Source of the DNA: a virus
Strand: one strand, 5' to 3'
DNA length: 64,000 nt
IMG/VR virus record: IMGVR_UViG_3300027956_000006
Part shown: piece by piece, positions 451 to 64,000 of the stretch
How positions within the stretch are numbered: position 1 is the stretch's first letter
Layout of the letters: each line of letters begins with the position of its first letter
The notes under the pieces: generated by a model
Database searches by the model: none
What the model saw: the letters and a program-made list of their open reading frames with translations, nothing else
Told to the model about the DNA's origin: nothing
Translations under genes and position numbers: made by a program

Positions 451-3400
451 GATATATTCAAATGCCCCTATATCAAAAACTGCTCCTCGCAACAATCCAT
501 CATAATCTCTAGTGAGTACTGCTGATAAGTCTGTTCCTGACCCTATCAATGTTGATGTGGCTTGTAGGTGGAAATCAGTTGTCGGACTTACCAACAACGG
601 ATTAATGTTACTCAAACAATTAGATCCAGCCCACTCCGGCTTTGTTCCATTACCATAGTAATCATCATAATCTGAAGTAACAGTTCCTAAAAAAGAACTA
701 AAATAATCAATCCCAGAATAAGAATAGAAAATATTATTACGAAAAGTAACATTAGCACTCTGATTATCACCCGCTAAATTTATTAAAGGATTAGCAGTTT
801 TAGCTAAATAAATAGTGTTATTATAAAACCGGATATTAGAAACTGGAGTTGAAGGACAATCCAACTGAACTGAAGGACGAATAGAAGAACCACAATTAAC
901 AACTAGATTATTATAAATATAAATGTCTTGATTTCTTGAATTAACAAACAATCCACCGTGCCCCATGTTATAACAGAAATTATCGTGAATATAAACTTCA
1001 TCAGCATACCCAGTACCATCACTATCAACGGGATGACTATAGATACCTGAAGCTTCATCATACAAATCATGAAACTCATTCCAACCAATTTCAATATTTG
1101 TAGTGTTACAGTTTGGATTATTTGTATTGCAACCAAAATAAGTAGCGTGGTCATATCTATCCCTTCCCCAATCAGAAAGAGTGCAACCAAGCAATTTAAC
1201 ATTCGATATATTTTGAAGTGTATAATTTCCAGCCCAAGTTGAAGCATCATTCCTATTACTTGTATGTAAACTTACTGCTCTAATAAATCCAATAGGAGTT
1301 CCTCCCATATATGAACCTGCAATTACTAAAGCAGAATCAGTAACATAACAATTCATTTTTGCTAAAGTAAAATAACCTGCATATCCATCAGCATCTTCAG
1401 GATTATCTCGAATGCAACTTCTCGTATCATCAGACGTATAACTATGATCTAATGTTGGTAATTCTCCCGGATAACCGACATATGCAGTCATATTATTTGC
1501 GCTTCCATTCTGATTATAAGAAAGATATAAATTCCCAGCATAGTCATCTTCTTCTGTATACGTCCCCCCTCTAATATAAAGAATACTTCCACTACTTATT
1601 TGAAGTCGTGCATAAGGAAGCGTCTCCCATGCGGTCGTGTCAGTTTGCCCGTTATTAGCGTTATTACCATTCGTATGATCGACAAACCTGATAGCCCCGG
1701 AAGTGCGGACATAAAAAGGTATCGTACTCGAAGTACCCGAACTTGTAGTTACGGATATTGTTTGCGCTCCAGAAGTACAAGAAGAATTTAAGTAAAAGGT
1801 TATTCGCTCTAATCCTCTTGCGTTATTTGTAGTTACTCCCCATTCCGCATAGTCTGCAGCAGTAGTTAAATTCTGCCCAGCTACTGTAACATAACTTGAA
1901 CCTCTTGTAGAACCAAAATTCTGTCCCCAGATCGTCACCGCTGCACCCTTTGTAGCACTCCCATTCCAACCGCTTCTTGGACCATCGGTCAAATCGGAGA
2001 AATACAAAACTGGTATAATTTCCTCATAAATATTTGCAGAACTACTTGAAGATGAAGAACTAGAACGAGAAGAACTAGATTTACTACTTGAAGAACTCCT
2101 ACTTGAAGAACTTTTTGAACTTGAGCTACTTTTACTAGATGAAGAACTTCTAGAACTACTACTGCTCTTAGATGATGAACTCGAACTTGATTTTGAGGAA
2201 CTCGAACTAGATTTACTGGAGCTAGAACTACTGCTTCTTGCACTAGAACTACTTTTACTAGAACTAGATGAAGAAGATGATTTACTACTAGAAGAAGAAC
2301 TCGACTTAGAACTACTAGAACTAGAAGATTTACTTGAACTTGAAGAAGAACTTTTAGAGCTAGATGATGAACTACTTCTCGAACTACTAGACTTGCTTGA
2401 ACTTGAAGACGATGATTTACTTGAACTACTGCTAGAAGACTTTGATGATGAACTACTACGACTTGAAGAACTTCTACTAGAACGAGAAGAACTGCTTCTG
2501 CTAGAAGATGATTTACTAGAACTTGAAGATGAAGAACTAGAACTCTTAGATGAAGAAGAACTACTTCTCGAAGAACTAGAAGAAGACCTAGAACTACTAC
2601 TAGAAGTAATGTCTCCATATAAATAAAATATCGAATCTATAGAGGTATACCTATCCCATTCACCAATACGATATGCCTCTAAATAATTAGGATGAGTTGG
2701 AGAAGTACTATCTACACAAACATCTATATAATTAGTAGAATTTACAGTTCCAGAAGCTACTATAACTGTTACTCCATAATCATTTGGACTTAAATGAACT
2801 GGAGAAGAGAATGTAAAAGTATATAATAAATATGAAGTTGTTAAAGTACTTGTATCTAATGTAGAAGAATTACCTAAAGTAATATCAAAATCTTGAAATA
2901 CTGGATCATAAGTATATAATCTTGCCAATAAAGTGCCAGTAGGATTTCCTACTTTTTTCAAATAAAATTTACATTGATATATATTCCAATCCTGTGTTAA
3001 AGTAACTTTTTGACCAACACCGGAGTAATATGCACCTTCTGATGGATGAACTATGCTTAAACTGAAATTACTTTGATTAGCACTTGAATAGCTATCTATT
3101 AATGTATAAGGAGAAGACGAACTACTTGAACTAGATGATTTAGAAGAGCTTGATTTACTGCTGGAACTACTTCTACTACTTGACGAACTACTTTCTGAAC
3201 TACTAGATTTACTTGATGATGAACTACTACGTGATGAACTCGATTCACTTGAACTCGATTCACTTGAACTCGATTCACTTGAACTCGATTCACTTGAGCT
3301 AGAACTGCTTCTACTCGACGACGATTGAGAGCTGGAGCTGCTACTGCGTGATGAACTCGATTCACTTGAGCTGGAGCTGCTACTACTCGACGACGATTGA

Positions 3401-5622
3401 GAGCTGGAGCTGCTACTGCGTGATGAACTCGATTCACTTGAGCTGGAGCTGCTACTACGTGATGAAGAAGAACTTGAGCTACGACTACTAGATACTCCAC
3501 CTACAAATTCTATCCATGGGCAATAATCATCAGTTGAGGTATCATTTTCTGGTAAATCATTTATAGAATTATCTCCAATTCTTAAGTATCCCGTGTGACT
3601 TTGCATAAGAGTTGGGTTTCCACCTATACCTATTTCAAATATCAATCTATCACCTTCTTGCACGCTAATTTCATTGGATGTAGCAGAATCGCTTCTATTG
3701 GTATTATTGAAAAGCCCAATTAATTCAGTATTATCTCTTCTAAGATCAACTACTGTTCCTCTTATAATAGAACCGTCATTAGAACAAAGATAAACACCCC
3801 AAACAAGATATTCATTACAATCAGTATTCTGTTGACTACAACATATTTGTATTTTAACTGTTTGAGATGGAATAATTTGTGCAGATAGTGGGTCTGATAT
3901 ATATTGTATTCCAAGACAATCTTTATCTGTATCAGACGATTCCATTATAATTACATTAGTAAAAGGTGAACTTATTTTTTCTGTCACTGCTCTTAAACGA
4001 CTAGCAAAAGAGGTATCTTCCCAATTAACGTTATATGCAGGAGTTTCTGTTGATACACCAGTTGATGGGAGATAGAATCTTGTCCCATCTACATCACTTA
4101 TTTCGCCTAAACTTGACCTAGATGATTTAGAGCTTGAGCTGCTTCTACTTGACGACGATTGAGAGCTTGAGCTGCTACTGCGTGATGAACTCGATTTACT
4201 TGAGCTGGAGCTGCTTCTGCTCGACGACGATTGAGAACTGGAACTGCTACTGCGTGATGAACTCGATTCACTTGAACTCGATATTGACGAACTAGAACTC
4301 TCACTAGAACTCTCACTAGAACTCTCACTAGAACTACTTCTTGATGAGCTGGAACTTCTTGATGAAGATGAGCTGGAGCTGCCCGATGCGGTATTAAAAG
4401 CTACAAAGACGCAAGCATAGTGGTCTGATGGATTGCTTGTCATCGTAGCTGTATAGTCACCAGATGCTGTAAACGCTTTATCTTGAGTTTGATGAGTATG
4501 CCCGGCTTGTTCTGTCCTCTCTGTCCACCCCTGACCTGTGGTAGCTGATAACGCCGTTGCTCCCGCTTCATTAGCCCAATACGCAAATAATATTCCAGCG
4601 TTTGTACTTACTGCTAAATTTCCCGTTGTGTGAGTAGCAGTTGCAACTGTTTCTCCATAATTTAAAGAATTATCATAAGGGTCAGAAGTATCCATCCCTG
4701 AATACACATGGCAAGATAACCCAGGGTCGCCTTTAGACGAGCAAGTTATTGTACAGGTAGAATTAGTGGTGTTTGCAATCGCATACCAAACTTGGATTGC
4801 ACAATAAGCTGCTCCTCCATCACCATTCCAGTTCCCGATAGAATTGGCAAGAGTATATGTATTACTATTCTCGTCTGAAATAGTAGCATTAGCAGCAGCA
4901 TCATTAAAAGAATACCCCACTACTATTAAATCACCGGCAGTAACATTAACCGTGATTGCCCTTGTCGAACCATTGTAAACACTACTAAAACTATCATTTG
5001 CAATTACTGGATAAGTTGCAGTATCAAGGAAACTTTGAGGTATTGTAATAATATACTTATTTCCTTCAATCAATAATTTAGCGGGGCAAGTGTTACCTTT
5101 AGCATCTTTAAATATCGGCTGATAGAAAAACCCGAACTTCTCTCCCGTTGAAATCCTGTTTATTTTATACCCACCAATTTGTTCGGGGATATGCTGTGCT
5201 ACACCGTCTTTGAGTATTGATGCTGGTCGAACAAACTCTAAATCTTCCGCACCTGATATATTAAATTTCCAGCGATTCGATTTGGGTTTTTCATTCAATA
5301 TCAGCCCAAATTTCATCGTCTGGTCATCATATTGATTAAAATAGAAATCTTCTTCCCCACCGTACATCTTCAACCCTTCACCGTCTATCAGGGTCTTATC
5401 GGTCATACCGCCAGAAGTAGGATAACTTAAAATTAAACTTTCTTCTCCATCCCACTTGGTAAATTTAATAGTAGGCTCAATATATTCTTTAATAGAAGAA
5501 TCAGATAAAATTTTAGCGAACACCACATTTTCATTCCCAACTATTACTTCATCGTTGGCTTCGCCTAATGTAGTTTTATAGTTATCAAATTCTACTTTTG
5601 TTTTGTCTTTAAATAAAGCCAT
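1..5622 (-). CDS. Giant modular serine-rich protein, >=1874 aa, runs off the window; probable virion fibre/adhesin (modules incl. IPT/TIG + parallel beta-helix, joined by poly-Ser linkers)
   Basis: ATG at 5622 with GAGG RBS (MALFKDKTKVEFDNY...). No in-frame stop found on manual reading down to position 1. Motifs IPQSFLDTATYPVI, YLKKVGNPTG, VTIWGQNFGSTRG, ILYIRGGTY, IYIYNNLVV/IRFYNNTIY/VTFRNNIFY, DFHLQATSTLIGSG...DIGAFEY. Confidence 0.9.
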   Translation of the reverse strand, partial: MALFKDKTKVEFDNYKTTLGEANDEVIVGNENVVFAKILSDSSIKEYIEPTIKFTKWDGEESLILSYPTSGGMTDKTLIDGEGLKMYGGEEDFYFNQYDDQTMKFGLILNEKPKSNRWKFNISGAEDLEFVRPASILKDGVAQHIPEQIGGYKINRISTGEKFGFFYQPIFKDAKGNTCPAKLLIEGNKYIITIPQSFLDTATYPVIANDSFSSVYNGSTRAITVNVTAGDLIVVGYSFNDAAANATISDENSNTYTLANSIGNWNGDGGAAYCAIQVWYAIANTTNSTCTITCSSKGDPGLSCHVYSGMDTSDPYDNSLNYGETVATATHTTGNLAVSTNAGILFAYWANEAGATALSATTGQGWTERTEQAGHTHQTQDKAFTASGDYTATMTSNPSDHYACVFVAFNTASGSSSSSSSRSSSSSRSSSSESSSESSSESSSSSISSSSESSSSRSSSSSSQSSSSRSSSSSSKSSSSRSSSSSSQSSSSRSSSSSKSSRSSLGEISDVDGTRFYLPSTGVSTETPAYNVNWEDTSFASRLRAVTEKISSPFTNVIIMESSDTDKDCLGIQYISDPLSAQIIPSQTVKIQICCSQQNTDCNEYLVWGVYLCSNDGSIIRGTVVDLRRDNTELIGLFNNTNRSDSATSNEISVQEGDRLIFEIGIGGNPTLMQSHTGYLRIGDNSINDLPENDTSTDDYCPWIEFVGGVSSSRSSSSSSSRSSSSSSSESSSSRSSSSSSQSSSSSSSSSSSESSSSRSSSSSSQSSSSRSSSSSSESSSSESSSSESSSSESSSSRSSSSSSKSSSSESSSSSSRSSSSSKSSSSKSSSSSSSSSPYTLIDSYSSANQSNFSLSIVHPSEGAYYSGVGQKVTLTQDWNIYQCKFYLKKVGNPTGTLLARLYTYDPVFQDFDITLGNSSTLDTSTLTTSYLLYTFTFSSPVHLSPNDYGVTVIVASGTVNSTNYIDVCVDSTSPTHPNYLEAYRIGEWDRYTSIDSIFYLYGDITSSSSSRSSSSSSRSSSSSSKSSSSSSSSSSKSSSSRSSSSRSSRSSSSRSSSSSKSSSSSSSKSSSSSSSKSSSSRSSSSSSSKSSSSSSSKSSSSSSSKSSSSSSSKSSSSSSSSKSSSSARSSSSSSSKSSSSSSKSSSSSSSKSSSSSRSSSSSKSSSSSKSSSSRSSSSSKSSSSRSSSSSSSSSANIYEEIIPVLYFSDLTDGPRSGWNGSATKGAAVTIWGQNFGSTRGSSYVTVAGQNLTTAADYAEWGVTTNNARGLERITFYLNSSCTSGAQTISVTTSSGTSSTIPFYVRTSGAIRFVDHTNGNNANNGQTDTTAWETLPYARLQISSGSILYIRGGTYTEEDDYAGNLYLSYNQNGSANNMTAYVGYPGELPTLDHSYTSDDTRSCIRDNPEDADGYAGYFTLAKMNCYVTDSALVIAGSYMGGTPIGFIRAVSLHTSNRNDASTWAGNYTLQNISNVKLLGCTLSDWGRDRYDHATYFGCNTNNPNCNTTNIEIGWNEFHDLYDEASGIYSHPVDSDGTGYADEVYIHDNFCYNMGHGGLFVNSRNQDIYIYNNLVVNCGSSIRPSVQLDCPSTPVSNIRFYNNTIYLAKTANPLINLAGDNQSANVTFRNNIFYSYSGIDYFSSFLGTVTSDYDDYYGNGTKPEWAGSNCLSNINPLLVSPTTDFHLQATSTLIGSGTDLSAVLTRDYDGLLRGAVFDIGAFEYITSESSSSSSSIVALSSSSSSKSSSSSSKSSSSSQSSSSRSSSSSSKSSSSRSSSSSSQSSSSSSSSGASSSSSRSSSSSSQSSSSSSSSGASSSSSRSSSSSSQSSSSRSSSSSSESSSSRSSSSSSQSSSSRSSSSSSESSSSRSSSSS
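2036..2607 (-). repeat. Poly-Ser linker 3 (~190 codons; TCT/AGT/TCA-rich, with Lys/Arg)
   Basis: Low-complexity gaa/act/aga/tga repeats in frame with the giant ORF. Confidence 0.9.
3112..3492 (-). repeat. Poly-Ser linker 2, includes a 15-bp tandem unit (SSESS) x4
   Basis: tgaactcgattcact tandem at ~3234-3296. Confidence 0.9.
4111..4386 (-). repeat. Poly-Ser linker 1, includes a 12-bp tandem unit (SSES) x3
   Basis: actagaactctc tandem at ~4291-4335. Confidence 0.9.
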
Positions 5623-34515: not shown

Positions 34516-37119
34516 CTAAGATCGTCCCTTAATATCCCTAATTAATTTGCGTTGTTCTAGTAATTTCTCTAAAGATTTTAATAACGCTTGCGGCATATCT
34601 AGCGTATCCTCTTTTTGTATAATTTGAGCAAATCTACAAATTTCTTTTATATGTGCCCCAGAAAAACCTTCTGTTTGTTTTAAAACAGACTCTAATATTG
34701 CATCGCTAATATCTTCTTTTAAAAAATGTAATAACATTTCTTTTCTTATTTCTTTATTAGGTAAATTAAAATATATAATATCGTGGAATCTCCCAGGTCT
34801 ATCAATTAATGCTTCAGGTAATTTTTCTGGAAAATTAGATGTTAATATTGTAAATATGCCATTATTTAATTTTAAACCATCTAATTCTGTTTTTAAAAGA
34901 TCTATCATCCCATATTCTATGTAAGAATCAATGTCTTCCATAAAAAGAATAGAAGGTCGAAGATTACGCGCTAAAGAAAAAGCTATAGAAAAAGCACTAC
35001 TAGGCCCGATAGCTGAACAATCTTTTGCCGTGACCCAAATAAATGTTGGAGCCATTTTAGATAATAATTTACCAGTAAGTGTTTTCCCACACCCAGGTGG
35101 TCCAATAAAAATTAATCCTCGTGAATCAAGATTAGGGTCATTTTTAGAAATCAATGATTCAACTTTTCTTAATTTATCTTTAATTGAATTACTAAGTTTT
35201 AAATCTTCCCAAGTAATAGTTTGTTCATCCAGAAATTCACCAGTAACAGAAAATTTTTCGTTTCTTAAAAAATTATTTTCTTGCGCGTAAAGTAATATGG
35301 CTCTTAACAATTTATTATTATATTCTTTTTCATTAATATGCGTAATAATTTTAGCCTGATATCCACCCCATACTGGATAACGCTGTATTATTATTGGCAT
35401 ATTTTTTGTATCATCATAATAAAAACTAGTTCCTTCTACTAAAAATGTTTTAGAAAGATTCTTTTTTAATTTTATTTCTTGATATAATGGTGGTATTTCA
35501 TAACTAGAAAAATTTCTAGTTTCTATTAAAGTAAAGTTTTTTAATAATACTTCTACTGAATTAAAAATATTACCAGATTCTACATGTGGTATGTGCATTA
35601 CATTAATATAAATATCTTTAATTTCACAATTCAAAAAATTACATAATATTGATATTTCATTAATATTATTTTCATTTTTACATATAGATACACATTTTTT
35701 AATTTCTTTATTATAAATAAATAAACCAGGTTGTTTATACGACAAAGTATAAGGCATATCTACTCTAATTACAACACCATTATTATCAATTAAGTTTAAT
35801 CTTTGTAATGCTTTTTCTAATTCATCTCTTTTTTTACAAAAAATATAAGGTAATTTATTTAATTGATAATCAGATTTTGTTAATGTAAATGTTGATTGTT
35901 TAATATTTAATATATCTAAAAATTTTCTACGTTCTGAAAAATTTAATTTATGTAAATCAGTATCAAAATATAATACATCATTTATATTACAAACGATATT
36001 ATTATCCTTATTATCTGTTTTTAAATATTCTAACACTCCATTAGTATCAGTCTGTGTACCTACTAACTCTAAAGTCCCTAAAACAATCAAACTGTCTACA
36101 GACAAAGTTTTTATAACTTTTATAATATTCGGAAGATATTCGTTTAACTTAATTCCTTCTTCTGTATAAATAGAAATAATATCCCCATCTTTATGTATTT
36201 GACAATTTAAACCAAAAGAATTTTTAGTAATATACAAAGGATAATCTTGTTCAACAAAATTAGAAACAATAAAGTTACTTTCAGTATAAGGTAACGACTT
36301 ATCTACTAAATTAAGAAAAAAAGTGCTAACTAATAACTTATCAGTATCCTTTATATAACGAGCCTGTTTCAATAATTCTCCCTTTATGCATACTGCTGAT
36401 TTTAGAAAATCTGTATTATTATTATAGGCAGACTCAACATAGCGGTTATCCTCAACTATACGCGAACAATTTAAAGAAAAAACAGTCTTTGAATCTAAAC
36501 ATTCATCTAAGGTGTTATTTTCTTTTAAAAATTTAAACGCTCCCCAATAACGTCTAGGGAGTAATTTTAATGTCTTCCAAATAGCGATCTTCAAAAAGGC
36601 TGTTTTTTCTGTTTCTTCTTTGGTAGTATTAATAATAAACTCATTATCTTTAGTCAAGTATATAAAAGGATCCTTTATTTTAAAACTTTTTAAATATTGT
36701 AACAATTCATCAATATTTACTTCATCTTTTATATCAAATTCTTGTTTGTCAAATTTATAATAATCATCTAAAAAATCTTCTTTATATTTATGAAATACAT
36801 TGCGCTGTTCTAATGCCTTTATAACATTCAGGTGTCGCTCATATAAATTTAAAAAGTCATAATAATTATCAAAATCATCAACTTCGCAAGATAAATGTAG
36901 CTGCTCATGTTCATTTGTTAAATTTTTTATTTCTTCCTGTACATTACTTGGTAAAATAGGTTTAACTAATATATTACCATTAGTATCTAATGTACAACTA
37001 CATTTAGGACAATTAATGGCCTGTGATTTTAAACTATTCATATTAAAATAAATAATCTCTTGATCACAATTTTTACAAGTTACTGTATAGCTTTTTTCTA
37101 CTGTCATCAATAACCCCAC
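34516..37119 (-). CDS. Zn-ribbon + degenerate ATP-dependent-ligase-like domain + AAA+ ATPase
   Basis: CKNC/CPKC; NCQIHKDGD, NDVLYFDTDL...ERRKFL; GPPGCGKT, LFMEDID, RPGRF. Confidence 0.8.
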   Translation of the reverse strand: MGLLMTVEKSYTVTCKNCDQEIIYFNMNSLKSQAINCPKCSCTLDTNGNILVKPILPSNVQEEIKNLTNEHEQLHLSCEVDDFDNYYDFLNLYERHLNVIKALEQRNVFHKYKEDFLDDYYKFDKQEFDIKDEVNIDELLQYLKSFKIKDPFIYLTKDNEFIINTTKEETEKTAFLKIAIWKTLKLLPRRYWGAFKFLKENNTLDECLDSKTVFSLNCSRIVEDNRYVESAYNNNTDFLKSAVCIKGELLKQARYIKDTDKLLVSTFFLNLVDKSLPYTESNFIVSNFVEQDYPLYITKNSFGLNCQIHKDGDIISIYTEEGIKLNEYLPNIIKVIKTLSVDSLIVLGTLELVGTQTDTNGVLEYLKTDNKDNNIVCNINDVLYFDTDLHKLNFSERRKFLDILNIKQSTFTLTKSDYQLNKLPYIFCKKRDELEKALQRLNLIDNNGVVIRVDMPYTLSYKQPGLFIYNKEIKKCVSICKNENNINEISILCNFLNCEIKDIYINVMHIPHVESGNIFNSVEVLLKNFTLIETRNFSSYEIPPLYQEIKLKKNLSKTFLVEGTSFYYDDTKNMPIIIQRYPVWGGYQAKIITHINEKEYNNKLLRAILLYAQENNFLRNEKFSVTGEFLDEQTITWEDLKLSNSIKDKLRKVESLISKNDPNLDSRGLIFIGPPGCGKTLTGKLLSKMAPTFIWVTAKDCSAIGPSSAFSIAFSLARNLRPSILFMEDIDSYIEYGMIDLLKTELDGLKLNNGIFTILTSNFPEKLPEALIDRPGRFHDIIYFNLPNKEIRKEMLLHFLKEDISDAILESVLKQTEGFSGAHIKEICRFAQIIQKEDTLDMPQALLKSLEKLLEQRKLIRDIKGRS

Positions 37120-39946: not shown

Positions 39947-42766
39947 TTACATATTTTCTAAAGATTGTTTTTGTGTTTTAAATAAGTTTAAAGTGTTTTC
40001 TTCTTTAGAGGGAAATTGCATTTCGTAAGCTTCATCATCTTCCATATTTTCTAATGGTGGTTTTTCAATTAATATATGCAATTTCCACCATGCACCAGCA
40101 AAACATCTATACGCTTCTGGTATATGCACTGTTGGTGGGGTATGTATAGAAACACGACCACTAGGGTCGGTTTTCTGCGTTTCAGAAATAAATTCTGGTA
40201 TCATTTCTTCGTCATAATTTAAAAGAAATTCAGTACTATAAAATTTTTCACGCAAAATACGAGTAGTAAGATTTTTCATATAATCTTTTACTTCTTCTAA
40301 GATATCTCCAGCTCCTTCTTTTTTACGCTTATATCCGGTAATAATGGCTTCACGAAAATCTATGAAAAAAATCCTTTTATCATATTGTTTAGATTTATAT
40401 TGTTCATTTTTGGGATTACATAATTTTGTCGCTATATCTCTACCATCCGCAGAAGTACAATCTATGCCTGCATATGCTTTATAAAATGTTAATACATAAT
40501 CAACTAATTCTGTTTGATCATCTGAAATCATACGATCTAATAATAAAATTTTTACTTTTAAATTCCATTTTCCTTTATATTTAAAAAAAGGTAACAGAAT
40601 AGTGGGCTGCGAATAACCTGCATCTATACCAACAATAACTTCTTCTACACCTTCAGGTAAACCTGGTAAATTACATAATACCTGACACGGATCCATATTC
40701 ACATAATCTTTTGCTAAAATTGTAATAATACGAATTTGGTTTTCAATTAACCCAGGAATATCTTTTGATTCACTAAAATCAATATTCTTTTTAATATCAG
40801 CTTCATTCCATACACCAAAAGAAGGCTCTCCATCCTGTGCTTCAATTTGTTGAATCCAATCATTAGAATTAGGGCCTTTTAATGTAGCTAATTTTTCACG
40901 TTTTAATTCTTGATTCCAATTAGGTTCCATTGCGCGATGAACCCTAAATTTTTTATTTTTAAATTTCTTTAAACGATGCGTAATCTCATAAAATGGAGAA
41001 TCAAGGATCCCATTTGATACGCCATAATAACGGTCAACAGAACCAGAAGGATGTTGCGTGTTTTGATATTTCATCCAAGCGTCTTGTATATAGAATTGGC
41101 CTTCTTCGATAAATCTAAAACAATTAGCGACTAATGTATGACTAACAAAATAATTATGTGTATTTTTAATACTAAGATCACATACCTTATTAATTTGTTT
41201 ATCTATTATAATTTCTTTAACCATTTTTTTCTGCAATAGAAATTCTTCATTAAAAAATTCATTAAGCTTAGATCCAATGCTAGATGTATCTGTTTCTATA
41301 TTAACTACTTTATATAAAAAAATTGGATGTAAGTAAGGTAAAATTAAATTAATAAATTTTAATGCATTTTTACGATTAAGATATAAATGATATAAGAAAT
41401 GCCCAAAACGTTTATTTTTTACTATTTTTACATCAATATCAAATTTAGATTTTAAAAATATTTTTAATAACTTATTTTCATTTAATGTAAATCCTTGTGT
41501 ATGCAATATAATACAATATATTACACCGCTTTTACCTAGAGTTCTACCCCCATCATCCATATACCAAATAGCTAAAGATTTTTCATCCACAAATTTTAAA
41601 AATTCTTCTGTAATAGTTTTTTTCTTATTTTTAATACATGTTAATGCAATTGGATCAAATGCAGATAAACAACGAGTGCTAAAAGATGCTTGATAGTGTC
41701 CATGTATACGGGGAACTTGTTTAATAATTTTTACTTTTTTATCTGAAACAAAATTTTTTAATACTTTATATTTAAATTCTATATATTCTCCATGTAAAGC
41801 TGTATGCGTAAATCTTATTCTATGTGATGCATCTGGAATATTACGTTGTTTATTAATTTTTCTACCAATTCTATGATTATTCCATGGATGAATAGATATT
41901 GATGCATCACCCAACAAACTACCAACAACAAGCGACCTTTGCGCACATGTCAAACTTGGCTCATCAGATAATAAAAAATCTGAAAATGGAATAATATCTT
42001 GCGCTTGTTTTTTAGTAATAATATTATTACTTTCAACATAAATACTATGATTATTAGTAACTAAAAGATGTGTATTATCTTCTAAAATAATACGTAATAT
42101 TTTTTTATCTTCAATTGGTGACACCCAACCATCAATAATTTCACTATCAACAATTTGTTGTTTATGAAAATCAAAACTTTTAACAAATAATTTTTTACCC
42201 CTTCTAATTTCTCTAATAATTTTAATAATAGAAATATTTCTCCCATCAGAAAGACGAACTCTTTGCCAAGGATGAATACATGGGTGATGTCCCTGAATCA
42301 TAACGGCTTGAGGATCTTCACCCGTAGAAATACCACAAATTTCATGATTATTTTTAAAACGAATTGAATAAATTGGAGTACGTGTAACAGCCTCGCGTAA
42401 AGAAACGCTTGTGTCACCTTTTAAGAAACTTCGCAAATAAGGAACATTCGCAAGATAAGTAATAACCTTCTCTAAACGATCCTTAACATGTGTTTTACGA
42501 AATGCTGTAAGAAAAGTTTCTTCTCCTGGATATAAATATGGGTTTTGCATAATTGAAAACTCAAGATCAAAACTTTTTCCAGTTCCACGTGCTCCTGCCC
42601 ACACAAGTTCGTCACATAACGCAGGTGCATATTGATAATAATATGTATAAAAAACTTTTCCTGTTGCTTGGGGTATAAAAAAATCTCGAAATGCTATTTT
42701 ATGATGAAAAACAAAATATAACCCTAGTTTTTGCTCAATGGTTGTGTTCTTTGTAGTAGTCGTCAT
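39947..42766 (-). CDS. terL: Terminase large subunit with intein
   Basis: Walker A GARGTGKS, Walker B CFRFIEE, RNase H-like VGIDAGYS. Confidence 0.88.
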   Translation of the reverse strand: MTTTTKNTTIEQKLGLYFVFHHKIAFRDFFIPQATGKVFYTYYYQYAPALCDELVWAGARGTGKSFDLEFSIMQNPYLYPGEETFLTAFRKTHVKDRLEKVITYLANVPYLRSFLKGDTSVSLREAVTRTPIYSIRFKNNHEICGISTGEDPQAVMIQGHHPCIHPWQRVRLSDGRNISIIKIIREIRRGKKLFVKSFDFHKQQIVDSEIIDGWVSPIEDKKILRIILEDNTHLLVTNNHSIYVESNNIITKKQAQDIIPFSDFLLSDEPSLTCAQRSLVVGSLLGDASISIHPWNNHRIGRKINKQRNIPDASHRIRFTHTALHGEYIEFKYKVLKNFVSDKKVKIIKQVPRIHGHYQASFSTRCLSAFDPIALTCIKNKKKTITEEFLKFVDEKSLAIWYMDDGGRTLGKSGVIYCIILHTQGFTLNENKLLKIFLKSKFDIDVKIVKNKRFGHFLYHLYLNRKNALKFINLILPYLHPIFLYKVVNIETDTSSIGSKLNEFFNEEFLLQKKMVKEIIIDKQINKVCDLSIKNTHNYFVSHTLVANCFRFIEEGQFYIQDAWMKYQNTQHPSGSVDRYYGVSNGILDSPFYEITHRLKKFKNKKFRVHRAMEPNWNQELKREKLATLKGPNSNDWIQQIEAQDGEPSFGVWNEADIKKNIDFSESKDIPGLIENQIRIITILAKDYVNMDPCQVLCNLPGLPEGVEEVIVGIDAGYSQPTILLPFFKYKGKWNLKVKILLLDRMISDDQTELVDYVLTFYKAYAGIDCTSADGRDIATKLCNPKNEQYKSKQYDKRIFFIDFREAIITGYKRKKEGAGDILEEVKDYMKNLTTRILREKFYSTEFLLNYDEEMIPEFISETQKTDPSGRVSIHTPPTVHIPEAYRCFAGAWWKLHILIEKPPLENMEDDEAYEMQFPSKEENTLNLFKTQKQSLENM
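41123..42280 (-). mobile_element. 386-aa intein with LAGLIDADG homing endonuclease
   Basis: Starts CIHPWQRVRLSDG; block B VTNNH; LVVGSLLGDASI and LAIWYMDDGG; ends HNYFVSHTLVAN|C. Confidence 0.92.
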
Positions 42767-43758: not shown

Positions 43759-44349
43759 TTAACACTTTCTAATAGCTCCTATAGTAGTACTAAATAAATC
43801 AGCAGTATGAATTAAGCACGCTAAACTTGTCATTTTACCCTTATCAATAGAAAACCCACCATGATGAAATACCAAAGAATTTAATTGTATATCTGTTAAA
43901 AAAATACCATATTTACTAATTAAATTAACTACCTCAGCACTATCGTTCATATCTACCTTATTATCATTATATAGAAATTCAGTTTCATATTTATTATGCC
44001 CAACATTCGGTGATATATTTCTTTTATATTTAGTAATTTTTTCTAAATCATGTATAAAAGATATACAAATTACATCATCTCTATTAAAATCATGCAAAAA
44101 ACGTTCTTTATAAAGATCAAACATATCTAATGCAAATTCCATTACTTCTAAAGTATGCACATAAAGCCCACCTTTATAATTATGATGATATTTGATAGAA
44201 GCGGGATTATTTCTAAGCTTTTCTTCTACTGCCGCATATAATTTTAATACATTCTTTCTTAATGCTGGCATCCTAATTTCTTCCAAATAATCTTTAATTT
44301 GTTTTTGTATTGCTATTGTTTCTGATAATTTGCTATCCATGAGTATCAA
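43759..44349 (-). CDS. HD-domain hydrolase (YhaM/Cbf1-like)
   Basis: PASIKYHHNYKGGLYVHTLEV, IHDLEK, HHG, IHTAD. Confidence 0.88.
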   Translation of the reverse strand: MILMDSKLSETIAIQKQIKDYLEEIRMPALRKNVLKLYAAVEEKLRNNPASIKYHHNYKGGLYVHTLEVMEFALDMFDLYKERFLHDFNRDDVICISFIHDLEKITKYKRNISPNVGHNKYETEFLYNDNKVDMNDSAEVVNLISKYGIFLTDIQLNSLVFHHGGFSIDKGKMTSLACLIHTADLFSTTIGAIRKC

Positions 44350-46164: not shown

Positions 46165-46842
46165 TTAATATTTAAAATTTTCCCATGGAGTTTTACTATA
46201 TCTTTGCCAAATTAACGCGTCTAACTCCGCAGAAGACAATTTATTCTGTTTTGCAATATCTTGAAATATCATTTCCATTTCTAAATAATGTTTATTTGTT
46301 CTTGGAGTACCGAAAGTTATTACCCAATCACCGCCTTGTGTCTCAAAAAACTGTTTTCCATCATTTGGAGTTAATGTATTTAAGAATTTAATAATGTGAG
46401 TATCAATTATGGCAAGATCTTTATCACCTAAATTACGCATAAAATGCGATGCTGTCTTCATACCTAAGCCTTTAACATTTTTTACTAACCATTCACGTAA
46501 TTTTTGAGAAGATAACAATTCTTCATAATCTTCCCATTTATAAATTTGATAAAGTATGTCTTGAAACTTACTTTTACCTTCTAATAAATATTTAGCTTTA
46601 TTTCTATAAAACCTAACAGGTTTACAAATTTCTTCCAATTCAGATTTGGCTATATCTATATAATAAAATTCCTTATCAATTAAAATATCAATTACTTTGC
46701 GATTATTAATAAATTTTGTTTGTGGAGCGCAGATACAGAAGCAAAGGTCATAAAAAACCTCTTCCACATTTTTTTTACGACCAAAATGTTTAAAAGTTTC
46801 TTTTAACCCTTGCTTCTCTTTATCTGTAATTACTAAAAGCAT
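46165..46842 (-). CDS. ogg: 8-oxoguanine DNA glycosylase/AP lyase (HhH, OGG2/Thermotoga-archaeal type)
   Basis: LCFCI, VRFYRNKAKY, VKNVKGLGMKTASHFMRNLG...AIIDTHI. Confidence 0.85.
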   Translation of the reverse strand: MLLVITDKEKQGLKETFKHFGRKKNVEEVFYDLCFCICAPQTKFINNRKVIDILIDKEFYYIDIAKSELEEICKPVRFYRNKAKYLLEGKSKFQDILYQIYKWEDYEELLSSQKLREWLVKNVKGLGMKTASHFMRNLGDKDLAIIDTHIIKFLNTLTPNDGKQFFETQGGDWVITFGTPRTNKHYLEMEMIFQDIAKQNKLSSAELDALIWQRYSKTPWENFKY

Positions 46843-55685: not shown

Positions 55686-56513
55686 TTACCTCGGTTTGTC
55701 CAACTCCCCCAACTTCTTCCTCTTGATGATAGCGCTTCTACTCCATCGTCTTTGAAAGTTTTTCCACCCTTTTGAGTATTCAATATCGTTTTCTTTATTT
55801 TTGAATAATTGCGCAAAAGGTAAGCACCCCATACGATATACTTCGTTTAGTCTATGGATGTTTTCTCTTGCATTATCTCCGATTAAAACATAACAATAAA
55901 TATGGTTTTTAGTAAACCCTGCTTTATGTAAAATATCAATCGCTTTTCTTAACGGCTCAATTCCATTCGGTTGATCACACGCTAACCATAAAGTTTTTAT
56001 TCTTAACCCTCGCAAATCTTCTGCTATCTTAGGAGTAATTCGATACTTTTCTAATCCACCCTTAAACTCGATAGATTTTTGTTTTTTAAGCATACTTATA
56101 ACTAATCTCCAATAGCGATCTGAACACGCTAAAATATTGTTGTCTTGAATAATGTTACCTTCGGGGAAATCATCAAACTCAATCACTCCTTTTCTTACTA
56201 TACAAAAACTACAATTATTCGGGCAACCTCTTGAAGTAATTGTAATGCCTTTTTTAAGATACATACCAGGTACAAAGGGTTTATCACTTTCACCGTTAAT
56301 AGCAACTCCTCCAAGTTTTACTTTATGAATACCGTCTGACCATTTTTCTACCAATTCTTTAGCTTTTGGGATATCCCAAGTAAATTGACAAGAGATGTGG
56401 ACTTCTTCATATCTTGGGAACCATAAATCTCTGGGATCATCTTTATACGAAAAAGATAAAGAATCTATTGGCGTCATACTTGTTCTACTTGGGAATACTC
56501 TTGCTATTCTCAT
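55686..56513 (-). CDS. Radical SAM protein
   Basis: TSRGCPNNCSFCIV; QDNN; YCYVLIG. Confidence 0.85.
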   Translation of the reverse strand: MRIARVFPSRTSMTPIDSLSFSYKDDPRDLWFPRYEEVHISCQFTWDIPKAKELVEKWSDGIHKVKLGGVAINGESDKPFVPGMYLKKGITITSRGCPNNCSFCIVRKGVIEFDDFPEGNIIQDNNILACSDRYWRLVISMLKKQKSIEFKGGLEKYRITPKIAEDLRGLRIKTLWLACDQPNGIEPLRKAIDILHKAGFTKNHIYCYVLIGDNARENIHRLNEVYRMGCLPFAQLFKNKENDIEYSKGWKNFQRRWSRSAIIKRKKLGELDKPR

Positions 56514-58128: not shown

Positions 58129-58836
58129 TTATTGCTCCATATTAATACCTAACCTTTTCAAATTAATTTTCTTTTTTATAGTAATATTATTTGCTTGGAG
58201 TAATTTTATAAATTCTAAAATCTTTTCCTTACTTGGTTCTTTTAATCCACAATTCTTACTGTCTATACCTATATTAACAAAACTTGGTTTAGCATTAACA
58301 ATTAATAATGCAAAATCTTGAGCATCGAAATCTAAAGCTGGTTCAATCGTAATAAATGTTTTAAAACCCGCAGCAGCAATTTGCGTTATCCCCTCTATGC
58401 GCTCCATAGATAGTGGTGCTTTACTTATATTATCCATATTACGATTAGTTTCTATGGTAGTCCCAATAAGCGAATTCTTAGGAAATAAAGCAAGAAATTC
58501 TACCATCCGTTTAGGGTTTTTACTCTGAAACACATATTGATTACCAGAATATTTCCGACAATGATTAAGAATCTTTACTATCCACAACCTATCTATTTCT
58601 TTAGCAAACATATCATTCATATGCTCAATAAATATTATTTTATTAAAACCATAATCAACCCCAAACTCTGATTCAATTAATCTAAGATCACCTAAATAAC
58701 GTGGACTGACCCCAAACCTATTCTTCTGCACATAACAATAACTACATTTATGTAGACATGCACCAGCTAAATGAGAATGCATATGTGTAACCCAGTCATA
58801 CATATTTCCCTTAGATATTTTTAACATGCTGCCCAC
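58129..58836 (-). CDS. Radical SAM / DUF5131 (Gp37/Gp68)-like protein
   Basis: CLHKCSYCY; IFIEHMND; QSKNP; GTTIET; TIEP. Confidence 0.75.
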   Translation of the reverse strand: MGSMLKISKGNMYDWVTHMHSHLAGACLHKCSYCYVQKNRFGVSPRYLGDLRLIESEFGVDYGFNKIIFIEHMNDMFAKEIDRLWIVKILNHCRKYSGNQYVFQSKNPKRMVEFLALFPKNSLIGTTIETNRNMDNISKAPLSMERIEGITQIAAAGFKTFITIEPALDFDAQDFALLIVNAKPSFVNIGIDSKNCGLKEPSKEKILEFIKLLQANNITIKKKINLKRLGINMEQ

Positions 58837-61922: not shown

Positions 61923-62822
61923 TTATGCTTTCCTCACTTCTTGTGTAAACATCTTAAATCCAGTAACAATACGCTGCCAAACTGTAGGTTTAACTGTTTG
62001 TTGCAAAGGTGCCGCTATGTTTTTGGGTAAAGAGTTTAATTTTAAAATTTCTTTAAACTGTTCTTTTGTTAAGTGAATATTGTGCTTTGTAGCTAGATGT
62101 TTTAAAATACGTGCCCGTACTTGGTGCGAGCCCTTATATTTTAATACTTCTATTAATTCATTAGTATTTAAAATAGGATAAGTATTAGTTGGTGTGTATA
62201 TATTACTATTCGCATTATATGGCTTGTTAATATGATATCGTATAGTAGTATATTTAGGCGACCATCCGAAGGTAGCTTTTAATTGTGTTTCAATAGCAGA
62301 AGTAGTGAAATGCTGTTTATGATAAAGCTGCATTATAGTGCTTATCATATTAAGAGGGACTTTCTTATATAGATGCGAAGATGTAGGAGATGTAGAAGAT
62401 GAAGAAGATCTGTCAGAAGTTGAAGAAGCGCTCTTTATATATCGATTGAATCTCTTCTGTTTATTTTTACGATAGTTCTTCGTTTTTGATGATGTCCAAT
62501 AAGATATAGTAGGAGAAGCAACTGTACGATTAAATTGCTGTTGGAATGCGGCAATAATTTCAGTATGTGTTTTAAATTGTTTACGTAAAGAGACAATAAA
62601 ATGTATCTGTTCTCTTGATAACCTTAGCGTTGTTTGATTTGAATTGAATCTAACAGCAGATACTTGTATAGTCGGGGTAGAAGGTAGCACTAACTGTTCT
62701 TCTTGATGTAAGACTGGGGATGGTGTTATTGTTGGGCTAGGAGAGAGAGTTGCTTCGATTATAGCGGGAGTTTCTACTTTAGGTGTTTCTGTGACTGATG
62801 TTTCTACTTTAACTTCTTCCAT
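61923..62822 (-). CDS. Basic protein with two HTH-like repeats; first gene after a strong promoter
   Basis: IIAAFQQQFNRTVASPTISYW / IETQLKATFGWSPKYTTIRYH; AGGAGG RBS. Confidence 0.55.
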   Translation of the reverse strand: MEEVKVETSVTETPKVETPAIIEATLSPSPTITPSPVLHQEEQLVLPSTPTIQVSAVRFNSNQTTLRLSREQIHFIVSLRKQFKTHTEIIAAFQQQFNRTVASPTISYWTSSKTKNYRKNKQKRFNRYIKSASSTSDRSSSSSTSPTSSHLYKKVPLNMISTIMQLYHKQHFTTSAIETQLKATFGWSPKYTTIRYHINKPYNANSNIYTPTNTYPILNTNELIEVLKYKGSHQVRARILKHLATKHNIHLTKEQFKEILKLNSLPKNIAAPLQQTVKPTVWQRIVTGFKMFTQEVRKA

Positions 62823-62870: not shown

Positions 62871-62898
62871 ATTATAACATATTATCTGTTTTTGTCAA
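62871..62898 (-). promoter_or_regulatory. Consensus sigma70 promoter
   Basis: TTGACA-16-TATAAT with TG extension. Confidence 0.7.
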
Positions 62899-63140
62899 GA
62901 AATATTTATTTATGTATAGAGATCAAAAAAAATACTGGAAAAATTTTTATTAAACAGTTGCGTTTTTTCTGAAAAAAATTAAAAGAATTTTATAAGAAAA
63001 AAAAAGTGGGGGGTCTGTTGTCTTTTCTTTTTTATCTTTTGTTGTATCTTGTTTATATCATTGAATATTTAAAATACATTTTTTTGTTGAAAGTCTTATG
63101 AGCTATTTTTTTAAAAAAAAATATCCAAAGCTTTGAGCCT

Positions 63141-63180
63141 AACTATACTTAACTATACTTAACTATACTTAACTATAGTT
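63141..63180. repeat. 10-bp tandem repeat x4
   Basis: AACTATACTT x3 + AACTATAGTT. Confidence 0.9.
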
Positions 63181-63193
63181 ATCAACACTCATA

Positions 63194-63783
63194 AAAAAAT
63201 GCAAGCTATTTTTTATATTAATGCTTTGTGTTTTTATAATATGTTGAGTATCTTCTCTCTCTATAATAAAATATACACTTATGAATAAGCGTATATATAG
63301 CTATATAAAATAAAAAATATATGAGCAATGCTGTAACGCTCATTTATTTTTTAGCTGTTGACTTCACAGCTTTTTTTTGTGCTGTTGTGTTATCAACATG
63401 CTTGTTGATATACTTAACAGCATCATTTTGCAAAAAACGGGCAAGATTATCTGCACTTGTGCAATACGCTGTATTTTTACATAAGTGCTGTTTTTTAGCT
63501 TCACTATCGACTTTTAACTGCGAAGCTATTTTATAAGTCTTATGCAATTTATGCAAAAAAACTGCACGCTCTTTTGTCTTAAGCAAGTCTTCAACTTGCG
63601 AGCGTGTTAGTTTTGCACTATCAACACGCTTTGAATCGTTAGCAAAATACTTGATAGATTGCAAGACAACATTTTTATTTTTGTCTTGCTCAATATTAAT
63701 CTTCTCTCTTACTATCTCAACAACTTTTTTTGTACTCATTTTTTTTTCTCTCTCTGTGATATAAAAAATAGCTTGCATTTTTT
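63194..63783. repeat. Perfect 25-bp inverted repeat pair (63194-63218 / 63759-63783)
   Basis: AAAAAATGCAAGCTATTTTTTATAT and its reverse complement. Confidence 0.85.
63344..63739 (-). CDS. Lys-rich protein lacking Gly, Pro and Trp (likely start MSTKK)
   Basis: ORF track; AGAGAGAG upstream of ATG 63739. Confidence 0.65.
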   Translation of the reverse strand: MSTKKVVEIVREKINIEQDKNKNVVLQSIKYFANDSKRVDSAKLTRSQVEDLLKTKERAVFLHKLHKTYKIASQLKVDSEAKKQHLCKNTAYCTSADNLARFLQNDAVKYINKHVDNTTAQKKAVKSTAKK

Positions 63784-64000
63784 GCTTGCAAAATTAGCAC
63801 TACGCAACAAGCTTCTGTTAAGCTTCAACTGCTTATCGCTTTGAGTATGTTTTGTTATACATACATATATTAAAGAACTATGCTGTTATTATCTCATAAT
63901 GATATTTTAAGTCAAGTCTTTTTTTTAATATTTTTTATGTTATATTTTTTATCATAATTTTAGACTTATTGTAGTTACAATAAGTATCATATATGCAGTA

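What the first reader, a model, noticed from the sequence alone, without database searches (positions are those of the whole stretch)
63141..64000. Terminal 860 bp almost free of GG/CC dinucleotides, down to protein and RBS level
By eye, 63141-64000 has no CC and a single GGG (63439-63441), although G and C are common as GC, TG and CA; tens of occurrences would be expected at this composition. The encoded protein has no Gly, Pro or Trp, and the usual AGGAG RBS is replaced by AGAGAGAG. The change begins at the 10-bp tandem repeat. Inference: a first-injected or unprotected segment purged of a motif targeted by host defence (GG/CC-containing restriction sites, CRISPR PAMs or a base-modifying toxin), analogous to site avoidance in T5 pre-early DNA. 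The gene would then be an anti-defence candidate.
Basis: partly seen in the sequence, partly recalled or inferred. Interest (0 to 1): 0.75.

Follow-up and report, generated by a model that had tools for sequence, protein, structure and literature searches.

The report
GG/CC-free early gene island in phage
One small early gene unit of an uncultured freshwater-sediment phage has no GG or CC anywhere in its DNA, so its protein has no glycine, proline or tryptophan; distant relatives keep the same ban, which suggests that something still unidentified in infected cells reads that two-letter step.

Summary
Window 63139-64000 (862 bp) has 2 GG/CC, both in one GGG, against 34-41 expected. No other 862-bp stretch outside the poly-Ser gene has fewer than 21.

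The block ends exactly at the window edge. It lies between a 10-bp x4 repeat and a 9-bp tandem array of 22-60 copies seen in overlapping contigs.

It is one transcription unit:
- a sigma70-type promoter and a 140-nt leader;
- a GAGAG start region without a Shine-Dalgarno sequence;
- a 131-aa basic protein (pI 9.9) with a confidently predicted fold that matches nothing known;
- a perfect 25-bp inverted repeat that brackets the gene.

Exhaustive HMMER search found 20 homologues (31-54% identity). Twelve of the 21 family proteins have two or fewer Gly/Pro/Trp. DNA from six further lineages shows the same 0.7-1.3 kb ban (coding GG 1/88, CC 2/73; flanks 0/87). The trait changed at least four times on the family tree.

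Selection therefore acts on duplex DNA. Which factor reads GG:CC is unknown. My best guess is a foothold for defence evasion. The main rival is the phage's own guanine mark.

This scan has noted similar GG/CC-free cassettes in unrelated phage-plasmids.

The parts
63139..64000 (.). GG/CC-free island, 862 bp; its right border coincides with the window end
   Evidence: 2 GG/CC (one GGG) against 34-41 expected. The same 561 + 301 bp gaps occur in L001-L004 and L006.
63888..63915 (-). sigma70-type promoter of the island unit: TTGACT, 16 nt, (TG)GATAAT
   Evidence: (L002 3105-3132, 10 of 12 plus TG), mapped by window = 67020 - L002. Relatives have TTGACA-17-TATAAT-type promoters at the same place.
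63784..63880 (-). 5' leader of about 100 nt between the inferred transcription start and the 5' arm; no GG or CC at about 38% GC
   Evidence: The transcription start is inferred from the promoter, not measured.
63759..63783 (-). 5' arm (gene orientation) of a perfect 25-nt inverted repeat; it begins with an A-run and ends 19 nt before the ATG
   Evidence: I1, 100% complementary. An equivalent bracket with unrelated arm sequences occurs in L011, L013, L014, L016, L018 and L020.
63747..63755 (-). AGAGAGAGA followed by an A-run, in place of a Shine-Dalgarno sequence; a second copy lies downstream of the gene at 63254-63262
   Evidence: D6, D13. The same motif occurs in L011, L013, L014, L015, L016 and the unpurged L020.
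63344..63739 (-). Gene for a 131-aa basic protein (pI 9.9) with no Gly, Pro or Trp; new family
   Evidence: AlphaFold2 model with pLDDT 88. No Pfam, PHROG, PADLOC, PDB or BFVD match.
63439..63441 (+). The only exception: GGG (sense strand GCC-CGT, Ala-Arg)
63311..63353 (-). AT-rich hairpin with T-runs on both sides, overlapping the stop codon; possibly a weak two-way terminator
   Evidence: I12. It did not reach the GC-pair criterion of the terminator scan.
63194..63218 (-). 3' arm of the 25-nt inverted repeat; it ends in a T-run
   Evidence: The minimum-free-energy fold of the 698-nt transcript contains the arm-to-arm stem, z = -6.7.
63140..63189 (+). Tandem repeat TAACTATACT, 4 copies (the last one decayed), forming the left border
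63007..63013 (-). Context outside the island: C6 run followed by a T-run, conserved in relatives about 100 nt upstream of the next promoter
62871..62898 (-). Context outside the island: consensus promoter TTGACA-16-(TG)TATAAT of the next early gene (299 aa, 61923-62822), which has ordinary GG/CC content

Best explanation
The 862-bp block is one self-contained immediate-early transcription unit. It has a strong host-type promoter, a long leader, a start region without a Shine-Dalgarno sequence, and one small, very basic protein that probably binds nucleic acid. A long-range 25-bp stem encloses the gene. Purifying selection keeps the duplex DNA of this unit free of the GG:CC step.

Most likely, a DNA-directed activity in the infected cell needs a word containing GG or CC in order to bind. 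The CRISPR PAMs CC, CCN and NGG are the best-known such words. Short-site nickases and other nucleases are alternatives. The unit would encode the phage's first counter-measure or DNA-shielding protein. It therefore has to stay intact and transcribable during the first minutes. Two routes would allow that: it enters first, as at the T5 and T7 leading ends, or it keeps being expressed from a fragment after the rest of the genome has been hit.

Shown: the ban, its selection at the nucleotide level, its symmetry between strands, its conservation and repeated turnover, and the anatomy of the unit.
For: 1. The ban is extreme and local: 2 against 34-41 expected, and no other stretch falls below 21.
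2. It is conserved where the sequence is not. Homologues at 33-54% identity sit in islands of 905 bp (L011), 954 bp (L013), 705 bp or more (L014), 742 bp (L015) and 750 bp (L018), with 0-1 sites.
3. Summed over seven lineages, coding GG is 1 against 87.7 expected and coding CC is 2 against 72.9. In the flanks, GG is 0 against 55.5 and CC is 0 against 31.2. Both dinucleotides are banned on one strand, and leaders and promoters are covered. That fits recognition of duplex DNA.
4. Selection goes beyond the protein. With the protein held fixed, resampling synonymous codons gives about 5 sites, but 0 are seen in four of the six banned genes tested (P 0.003-0.08 each).
5. The protein was rewritten. 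Unpurged homologues have Gly at the N-G turn, at NTGY and at ADG, where purged ones have N, D, S or A.
6. Only GG/CC is affected. GA/TC is not, and GC, AGCT and TGCA are enriched.
7. The trait needs at least 4 changes on the family tree, as expected for an agent that is present in some host or phage backgrounds only.
8. The position fits. It is the first unit of the early gene run, next to tandem arrays and about 1 kb of ORF-free DNA at a point of divergent transcription. The next early gene, behind its own consensus promoter, is not purged.
9. Genome-wide PAM depletion in phages is documented (PMC4246573, PMC12174588).
Against: - No host, no CRISPR spacers and no genome termini are known, so neither first entry nor a PAM link has been tested.
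- Protecting 0.9 kb of a genome of more than 100 kb helps only under stepwise entry or expression from a fragment. Neither is shown.
- In L016 all 19 GG sites of the island are WGGTW, and 12 of them are ATGGTA, the word of its own upstream array. An NGG or CC PAM reader would not spare these.
- The protein has no similarity to known anti-defence proteins. It is basic, not a DNA mimic.
- The scan's similar islands are in phage-plasmids of rhizobia. I believe CRISPR is uncommon there, but that is my own knowledge and was not checked.
Confidence: 0.42

Rival explanations
1. The phage's own DNA mark. The virion DNA carries a base modification at GG-containing words, for example a guanine hypermodification. 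This one unit is kept free of the target word so that it stays unmarked. Host RNA polymerase and regulators can then read it at once, or modification-dependent host nucleases find nothing in it.
For: - Exceptions are lineage-specific (ours CGGGC, L015 AGGA, L016 only WGGTW). That fits enzymes whose word differs between lineages.
- The window encodes an Ogg2-like HhH glycosylase (PF22175, E 6e-38; NF002305 at 141 bits, below its cut-off of 183), a radical-SAM-like protein and a DUF5131 protein.
- A jumbo phage with G modified at GA and/or GG, and Ogg-like domains that sense modified G, are described in PMC12191111.
It is a lead, not evidence.
Against: - No TGT/DpdA, QueC, QueD or FolE and no DNA methyltransferase was found among the 29 proteins scanned from 31-64 kb and beyond. 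The rest of the genome could not be read.
- The next early genes sit behind a consensus sigma70 promoter and have normal GG/CC content. Host polymerase must therefore cope with those sites.
Confidence: 0.2
2. Self-exemption. The island protein itself, or the protein that binds the neighbouring arrays, binds duplex DNA at GG-containing words in order to coat, silence or organise DNA. Its own gene is kept free of such words so that its transcription is not blocked.
For: - All 21 family members are very basic (pI 9.8-11.0) and have Lys-rich tails.
- Arrays of a GG-containing word lie directly upstream: TAYGATTGG in 22-60 copies here, and TATGGTAR in L016.
- In L016 that word is the only GG word tolerated in the island, and it forms a palindrome just after the promoter.
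Against: - Nine of the 21 family members are not purged, although they share the fold and the unit architecture.
- In L016 the array word lies inside the gene, which is the opposite of what exemption predicts.
- There is no DNA-binding fold match.
Confidence: 0.1
3. RNA-level avoidance. It is the messenger RNA that must lack GG and CC. The purpose would be to escape an RNA-directed toxin or RNase, or to avoid any Shine-Dalgarno or anti-Shine-Dalgarno pairing because the message is translated in a way that does not use the Shine-Dalgarno sequence.
For: - The island roughly matches the transcript plus a short AT-rich margin.
- The start region has no Shine-Dalgarno sequence. The first island gene of L013 looks leaderless.
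- The RNA is predicted to be highly structured, with a stem that closes the whole message.
- A toxin that modifies RNA at a dinucleotide exists: CmdT at GA.
Against: - GG and CC are banned equally on the sense strand (1/87.7 and 2/72.9). A reader of single-stranded RNA should care about one of them, unless both strands are transcribed.
- The GAGAG start region is also used by the unpurged relative.
Confidence: 0.08
4. No selection on the motif. The pattern would come from hypermutation (for example a CC-specific deaminase), foreign or chimeric DNA, or a protein that simply needs no Gly, Pro or Trp.
For: One 860-bp case taken alone could be an oddity.
Against: - The island's GC content (28%) is about that of the genome (30%), and GC steps are 2.8 times enriched. 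Deamination would have driven the block AT-rich, not raised its GC steps.
- The ORF is intact and has a high-confidence fold.
- The same ban is present in six other lineages at 33-54% protein identity.
- Non-coding DNA and codon junctions are purged too.
- The junctions are identical in six assemblies, and the region is syntenic in L012/L013.
Confidence: 0.02

Closest known systems
Motif avoidance in phage genomes: restriction-site avoidance and CRISPR PAM depletion (PMC4246573; CC-PAM depletion in P. aeruginosa phages, PMC12174588)
   Same: A short DNA word is under-represented through selection. GG/CC is the core of common PAMs.
   Different: The published cases are modest, genome-wide statistical depletions of words of 2-6 bp. 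Here the ban is nearly absolute and confined to a 0.7-1.3 kb unit. It is strong enough to remove three amino acids from a protein. Palindromic 4-mers are enriched, not avoided.
Leading-end early regions: the T5 first-step-transfer DNA, and the first ~850 bp of T7 that enters before transcription pulls in the rest, followed by the anti-restriction gene 0.3 (textbook knowledge, not checked here)
   Same: A small block with a strong host-type promoter at the start of the early genes, next to arrays of short repeats, whose product could act before the rest of the genome is exposed.
   Different: The physical ends are not mapped. The protein is basic (pI 9.9), unlike the acidic DNA mimic Ocr, and there are no A1 or A2 homologues. 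Neither T5 nor T7 bans a dinucleotide or rewrites a protein.
Context-specific guanine modification of phage DNA (7-deazaguanines; Pa5Oct with G modified at GA and/or GG, PMC12191111)
   Same: The specificity is a dinucleotide-scale word centred on G. The phage is large and encodes an Ogg-like HhH protein and radical-SAM-like proteins.
   Different: No Dpd or Que genes were found in the part of the genome I could read. No unmodified island has been described for those phages.
Long-range processing stems that bracket a whole RNA, such as the RNase III stems around 16S and 23S rRNA, and the RNase III sites between T7 early messages (textbook knowledge)
   Same: The 5' and 3' flanks of the gene pair over 21-29 bp. 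The arms co-vary between lineages, and the stem appears in the minimum-free-energy fold.
   Different: Here the stem brackets a protein-coding message. Its arms carry A- and T-runs, as in a two-way terminator. Processing was not tested. A role at the DNA level (cruciform or inversion) is not excluded.
GG/CC-free cassettes noted earlier in this scan in SSU5-like and Rhizobium/Methylobacterium phage-plasmids (e1-5629546, e1-3543736, e1-5352931, e1-5343836)
   Same: A block of about 1 kb without GG or CC, proteins free of Gly, Pro and Trp, arrays of a word containing CCA/TGG next to the block, and conservation among relatives.
   Different: The phage group is unrelated and the protein is different. 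Those notes describe winged-helix regulators, whereas this fold matches nothing. They are AI notes that I did not re-test.

Membership tests
T5-type first-step-transfer / pre-early region | Lies in the terminal repeat at the DNA end that enters first, bounded by an injection stop signal | not testable with these tools
   No reads or termini are available, and every contig breaks in tandem arrays.
T5-type first-step-transfer / pre-early region | Encodes homologues of pre-early proteins (A1, A2, Dmp) | tested here: not met
   The island protein has no PHROG or Pfam hit. Exhaustive HMMER search finds only uncharacterised homologues.
T7 gene 0.3 (Ocr)-type leading-end anti-restriction gene | Small, highly acidic DNA-mimic protein | tested here: not met
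   pI 9.9, K+R 29 against D+E 14; the whole family has pI 9.8-11.0.
Anti-CRISPR (acr-aca) locus | Small acr gene next to an HTH aca repressor gene, with an inverted-repeat operator in the promoter | tested here: inconclusive
   Nine downstream early ORFs and the second island gene of L013 have no HTH family hit. The inverted repeat brackets the gene and does not sit in the promoter. An Acr cannot be recognised from sequence alone.
PAM or restriction-site avoidance | The target word is significantly under-represented | tested here: met
   2 against 34-41 expected; across seven lineages 3 against 247.
PAM or restriction-site avoidance | The depletion is genome-wide and matches the word used by the host's own system | tested here: not met
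   In the rest of the window the observed/expected ratio is 1.26 for GG and 1.18 for CC. The host and its systems are unknown.
7-Deazaguanine (Dpd/Que) DNA modification system | DpdA/TGT transglycosylase together with QueC, QueD, QueE and FolE genes | tested here: inconclusive
   The Pfam scan of 29 proteins found only Ogg-HhH, weak radical-SAM matches and DUF5131. More than 100 kb of the genome could not be read.
Invertible DNA segment (inverton) | Inverted repeats together with a recombinase, and both orientations present in the population | tested here: not met
   All six assemblies have the same orientation. No recombinase family was found among the proteins scanned. The arm sequences differ completely between lineages, which argues for pairing, not for a conserved recombinase site.
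RNase III long-range processing stem | Complementary 5' and 3' flanks, kept by co-variation, that form a duplex of 20 bp or more in the transcript | tested here: met
   Seven lineages have arms of 16-29 nt with unrelated sequences. The stem is in the minimum-free-energy fold. Cleavage itself was not tested.

The most novel reading that the evidence does not exclude
An undescribed activity, encoded by the host or by the phage, reads the bare GG:CC step of duplex DNA, so it is neither a classical restriction site nor simply a known PAM. It would be common enough in nature for unrelated phage groups (this large freshwater-sediment phage family and the phage-plasmids noted earlier in this scan) to have each evolved a roughly 1-kb foothold unit written without that step. 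The cost is the loss of Gly, Pro and Trp from the encoded proteins. In this family the foothold is also a gene held inside a long-range stem, with translation that does not use a Shine-Dalgarno sequence.
Probability: 0.35. Interest if true: 0.9.

Novelty: new variant of a known kind. Interest (0 to 1): 0.8.

Why it matters
Selection on a DNA dinucleotide that is strong enough to delete three amino acids from a protein is very unusual. Here the ban is kept across relatives with 33-54% protein identity and has been gained or lost at least four times.

It marks, at single-gene resolution, the stretch of a phage genome that must survive or be read first. It therefore points both to a probable new early counter-defence or DNA-shielding protein family and to an unidentified reader of GG:CC.

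The signature is easy to compute: a local absence of GG/CC together with proteins free of Gly, Pro and Trp. It could be used to find such foothold genes in any phage genome and to match them with the defence or modification system responsible.

Tried and rejected
**Searches that found nothing**
- DNA search of the island against 50,697 phage records, and tblastn of the protein against the same records.
- Word-indexed protein searches, which returned only the protein itself or a few family members.
- Scans of viral, genome and metagenome contigs with the 299-aa neighbour or with an alignment of three family members.
- DNA-pattern scans. The inverted-repeat arm gave no hit. The 9-bp array word gave four unrelated contigs, none with an island.
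- Rfam over 4.4 kb around the island.
- PDB by sequence profile.
- Structure searches with Foldseek against PDB, VIA-align against 48,161 chains (best Z 5.0) and BFVD (best TM 0.38). I read these as no match.
- PADLOC.

**Ideas I rejected**
The paper reports no consensus motif (PMC11543638).
- General palindrome or restriction avoidance. AGCT and TGCA are enriched.
- A wider ban on G followed by a purine. GA/TC is not consistently depleted.
- A link between the low-GG/CC stretches at 1-4400 and the island. They are poly-Ser codon repeats.
- Protection of GG-free DNA from guanine oxidation, with the neighbouring GG-rich array acting as a sink. This is my own reasoning, untested: damage at a single G is too rare to purge a protein.

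**Limits**
- The contig could not be extended past the arrays, because every assembly stops there.
- No whole genome is held for this window.

Full report
**1. The observation**

Window 63139-64000 has no CC. Its only GG are the two in the GGG at 63439-63441. The block has G 105 and C 136 in 862 bp. Mononucleotide shuffles give 34.0 +/- 5.0 GG+CC (lowest of 20,000 shuffles: 17). The window's own dinucleotide odds give 41.5, for a Poisson P of about 1e-15.

No other 862-bp stretch of 5700-62000 has fewer than 21, and the median is 48. The GG/CC-poor stretches at 1-4400 have a trivial cause. They are Ser-codon repeats in the linkers of a giant minus-strand protein of at least 1,874 aa.

Only GG/CC is affected in the island. 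GC is 2.8 times over-represented and AGCT and TGCA are 3.7-3.8 times enriched. This is therefore not general avoidance of palindromes or restriction sites.

**2. What the window is, and where the island ends**

The window is a novel phage. It has a major head protein, a head protease and many glycosyltransferases, about 30% GC, and all genes on the minus strand.

No whole genome is held. Identical proteins occur on contigs from several JGI freshwater-sediment metagenomes and one Logan run. Six assemblies match the last 4 kb of the window at 99.75-100%, so the block is not an assembly chimera.

Contig L002 runs 3 kb past the window end. The island stops exactly at 64000/64001. A 9-bp tandem array starts there (TAYGATTGG, one GG per unit; about 60 copies in L002 and 22 in L001). 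About 1 kb of ORF-free DNA follows, and then genes on the other strand.

The island is thus everything between that array and the TAACTATACT x4 repeat at 63140-63189. It lies at a point of divergent transcription.

**3. Anatomy**

Read on the minus strand, the island is one transcription unit:
- a sigma70-type promoter, TTGACT-16-(TG)GATAAT, at 63915-63888;
- a leader;
- the 5' arm of a perfect 25-nt inverted repeat (63783-63759);
- AGAGAGAGA plus an A-run in place of a Shine-Dalgarno sequence;
- the 131-aa ORF (63739-63344);
- an AT-rich hairpin at the stop codon;
- a second GAGAGAGA;
- the 3' arm (63218-63194).

The 698-nt RNA folds with z = -6.7, and the minimum-free-energy structure contains the arm-to-arm stem.

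Downstream, outside the island, lie a C6 run with a T-run and then a consensus promoter, TTGACA-16-(TG)TATAAT. This promoter serves the next early gene, which has ordinary GG/CC content.

**4. The protein**

The protein has no Gly, Pro or Trp, whereas the window's proteins average 10.4% of these three residues. It is strongly basic (pI 9.9) and has a Lys-rich tail.

It has no Pfam, PHROG, PADLOC or PDB-sequence match. An AlphaFold2 model built on the family alignment is confident (pLDDT 88). It shows three strands followed by helices.

The model matches nothing convincingly in PDB or BFVD. The best Z is 5.0 and the best TM-score is 0.38. I infer that it binds nucleic acid. That is not shown.

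**5. Conservation, the key result**

An exhaustive HMMER search of 1.84 billion representatives found 20 homologues at 31-54% identity. Eight of them have no Gly, Pro or Trp, and three more have one or two. Counting our own protein, that is 12 of 21.

I fetched DNA for nine homologues; for one of them (P0008) no DNA could be retrieved. The counts of GG/CC within the gene were:

| Locus | Observed | Expected |
|---|---|---|
| Ours | 2 | 21.7 |
| L011 | 0 | 31 |
| L013 | 0 | 17.8 |
| L014 | 0 | 18 |
| L015 | 1 | 20 |
| L017 | 0 | 24.5 |
| L018 | 0 | 27 |
| L016 | 10 | 21 |
| L019/L020 | 35 | 43 |

The islands extend beyond the genes. They cover 905 bp in L011, 954 bp (plus about 300 bp with 3 sites) in L013, and the whole 705-bp contig L014. 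The L013 island also includes a second gene of 80 aa that looks leaderless.

Summed over seven lineages, coding GG is 1 against 87.7 expected and coding CC is 2 against 72.9. Flanking GG is 0 against 55.5 and flanking CC is 0 against 31.2.

With each protein held fixed, resampling synonymous codons by the phage's codon usage still predicts about 5 sites per gene. Four of the six banned genes tested have none (P 0.003-0.08 each).

Where unpurged homologues have Gly (the N-G turn, NTGY, ADG), purged ones have N, D, S or A.

On a maximum-likelihood tree the purged state needs at least four changes.

From this I conclude that the ban is maintained by selection. It acts on nucleotides, not only on the protein. 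It is symmetric between strands and covers non-coding DNA, which points to duplex DNA as the level of recognition. It also switches on and off between lineages.

**6. Other conserved features**

The inverted-repeat bracket is present in every lineage for which both flanks are available. The arm sequences are unrelated: 29 nt in L011, 28 in L013, 22 in L014, 25 in L016, 21 in L018, and 16 in the unpurged L020. This is co-variation, so pairing matters and not a fixed protein site.

In four lineages, ours included, the 5' arm starts with an A-run and the 3' arm ends in a T-run. I propose an RNA stem that closes the message, acting as an RNase III site, a stabiliser or a terminator. This is inferred.

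The GAGAG start region is also family-wide, and the unpurged L020 has it too. It is therefore not merely a Shine-Dalgarno sequence rewritten under the ban.

In L016 all 19 GG sites of the island are WGGTW, and 12 are ATGGTA. That is the word of its own upstream tandem array and of a palindrome just after its promoter. Beyond the C6 motif the contexts become ordinary. So in that lineage the ban spares exactly one functional word. I have no full explanation for this.

**7. Mechanism**

Any explanation must say why only this unit is purged. Two kinds of account do so.

(a) The unit must be expressed before or while something acts on GG:CC words elsewhere. This could be because it enters first, as at the T5 and T7 leading ends. 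It could also be because it keeps being transcribed from a fragment, in the way anti-CRISPR producers immunosuppress cells for later phages. Both analogies come from my own knowledge and were not checked here.

(b) The rest of the genome carries something at GG:CC that this unit must not carry. That could be the phage's own base mark or a coating protein.

CC, CCN and NGG are the commonest PAM cores, and genome-wide PAM depletion is documented (PMC4246573, PMC12174588). The unit also sits first in the early run, next to arrays.

The own-mark rival (0.2) draws on three things: the lineage-specific exceptions, the Ogg2-like glycosylase and radical-SAM-like genes, and a report of a jumbo phage with G modified at GA and/or GG together with Ogg-like sensors of modified G (PMC12191111). 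Against it, no Que or Dpd genes were found in the readable part, and the next early genes tolerate GG/CC.

Self-exemption (0.1) and RNA-level avoidance (0.08) fit less well. Neutral or artefactual causes are excluded (0.02).

**8. Relation to what is known, and novelty**

Motif avoidance is a known kind of adaptation. A local, near-absolute ban on a dinucleotide that rewrites a protein, is conserved yet repeatedly toggled, and is tied to a gene bracketed by a stem is not described in the papers I could search.

Earlier notes of this scan report similar GG/CC-free cassettes in unrelated phage-plasmids and TC/CC-free early genes in jumbo phages. I used them as leads only. If those notes hold, this family is a further case in an unrelated phage group of what may be a general phenomenon.

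Noticed in passing
L002 1520-1960 (about 2.0-2.5 kb beyond the window end) and L013 1940-2370: An ORF-free element of about 450 nt is roughly 70% identical between two phages whose island proteins share only 33% identity. It has long invariant blocks. It lies between the leftward genes and the arrays and has no Rfam match. It could be a non-coding RNA or an origin or packaging element.
   Followed up: partly
Beyond 64000 (L002 2483-3021; also L001, L003, L004, L006): A 9-bp tandem array, TAYGATTGG, has 22 to about 60 copies depending on the assembly. Most sets of three units mimic a sigma70 promoter (TTGGTA-16-(TG)TATGAT; 35 such hits in L002). Further arrays lie nearby: an 11-bp unit x8.7 at the start of the L002 contig and a 14-bp unit x3.4. 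All assemblies break in these arrays.
   Followed up: partly
window 1-5622 (minus strand) and 5874-30899: A giant protein of at least 1,874 aa carries several poly-Ser linkers of about 90-190 residues. About 25 kb of glycosyltransferase, epimerase and related genes lie just upstream of it on the same strand, directly after the capsid gene. This suggests glycosylation of a virion fibre.
   Followed up: no
window 46165-46842 (minus strand): The phage encodes an Ogg2-like HhH DNA glycosylase (PF22175, E 6e-38; NF002305 at 141 bits, below its cut-off). An HD-domain protein (43759-44349), a radical-SAM-like protein (55686-56513) and a DUF5131 protein (58129-58836) lie nearby.
   Followed up: partly
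window 39947-42766 (minus strand): A 939-aa protein is interrupted by an intein with a LAGLIDADG homing endonuclease domain. In the related phage L012/L013 the gene just after the island is a 637-aa LAGLIDADG protein.
   Followed up: no
window 34516-37119 (minus strand): An 867-aa protein combines an ATP-dependent DNA ligase-like domain (weak match, E 1.7e-5) with a C-terminal AAA+ ATPase. It sits among the head genes.
   Followed up: no
window 63007-63013; L013 about 5083-5090; L016 1043-1048: A C6-7 run followed by a T-run is conserved in three lineages about 100 nt upstream of the consensus promoter of the next early gene. It lies just outside a block that bans CC.
   Followed up: partly
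L013 3953-4230: The first gene of the related island (80 aa) starts 6 nt after a perfect TTGACA-16-TATAAT promoter, so its message is probably leaderless.
   Followed up: no
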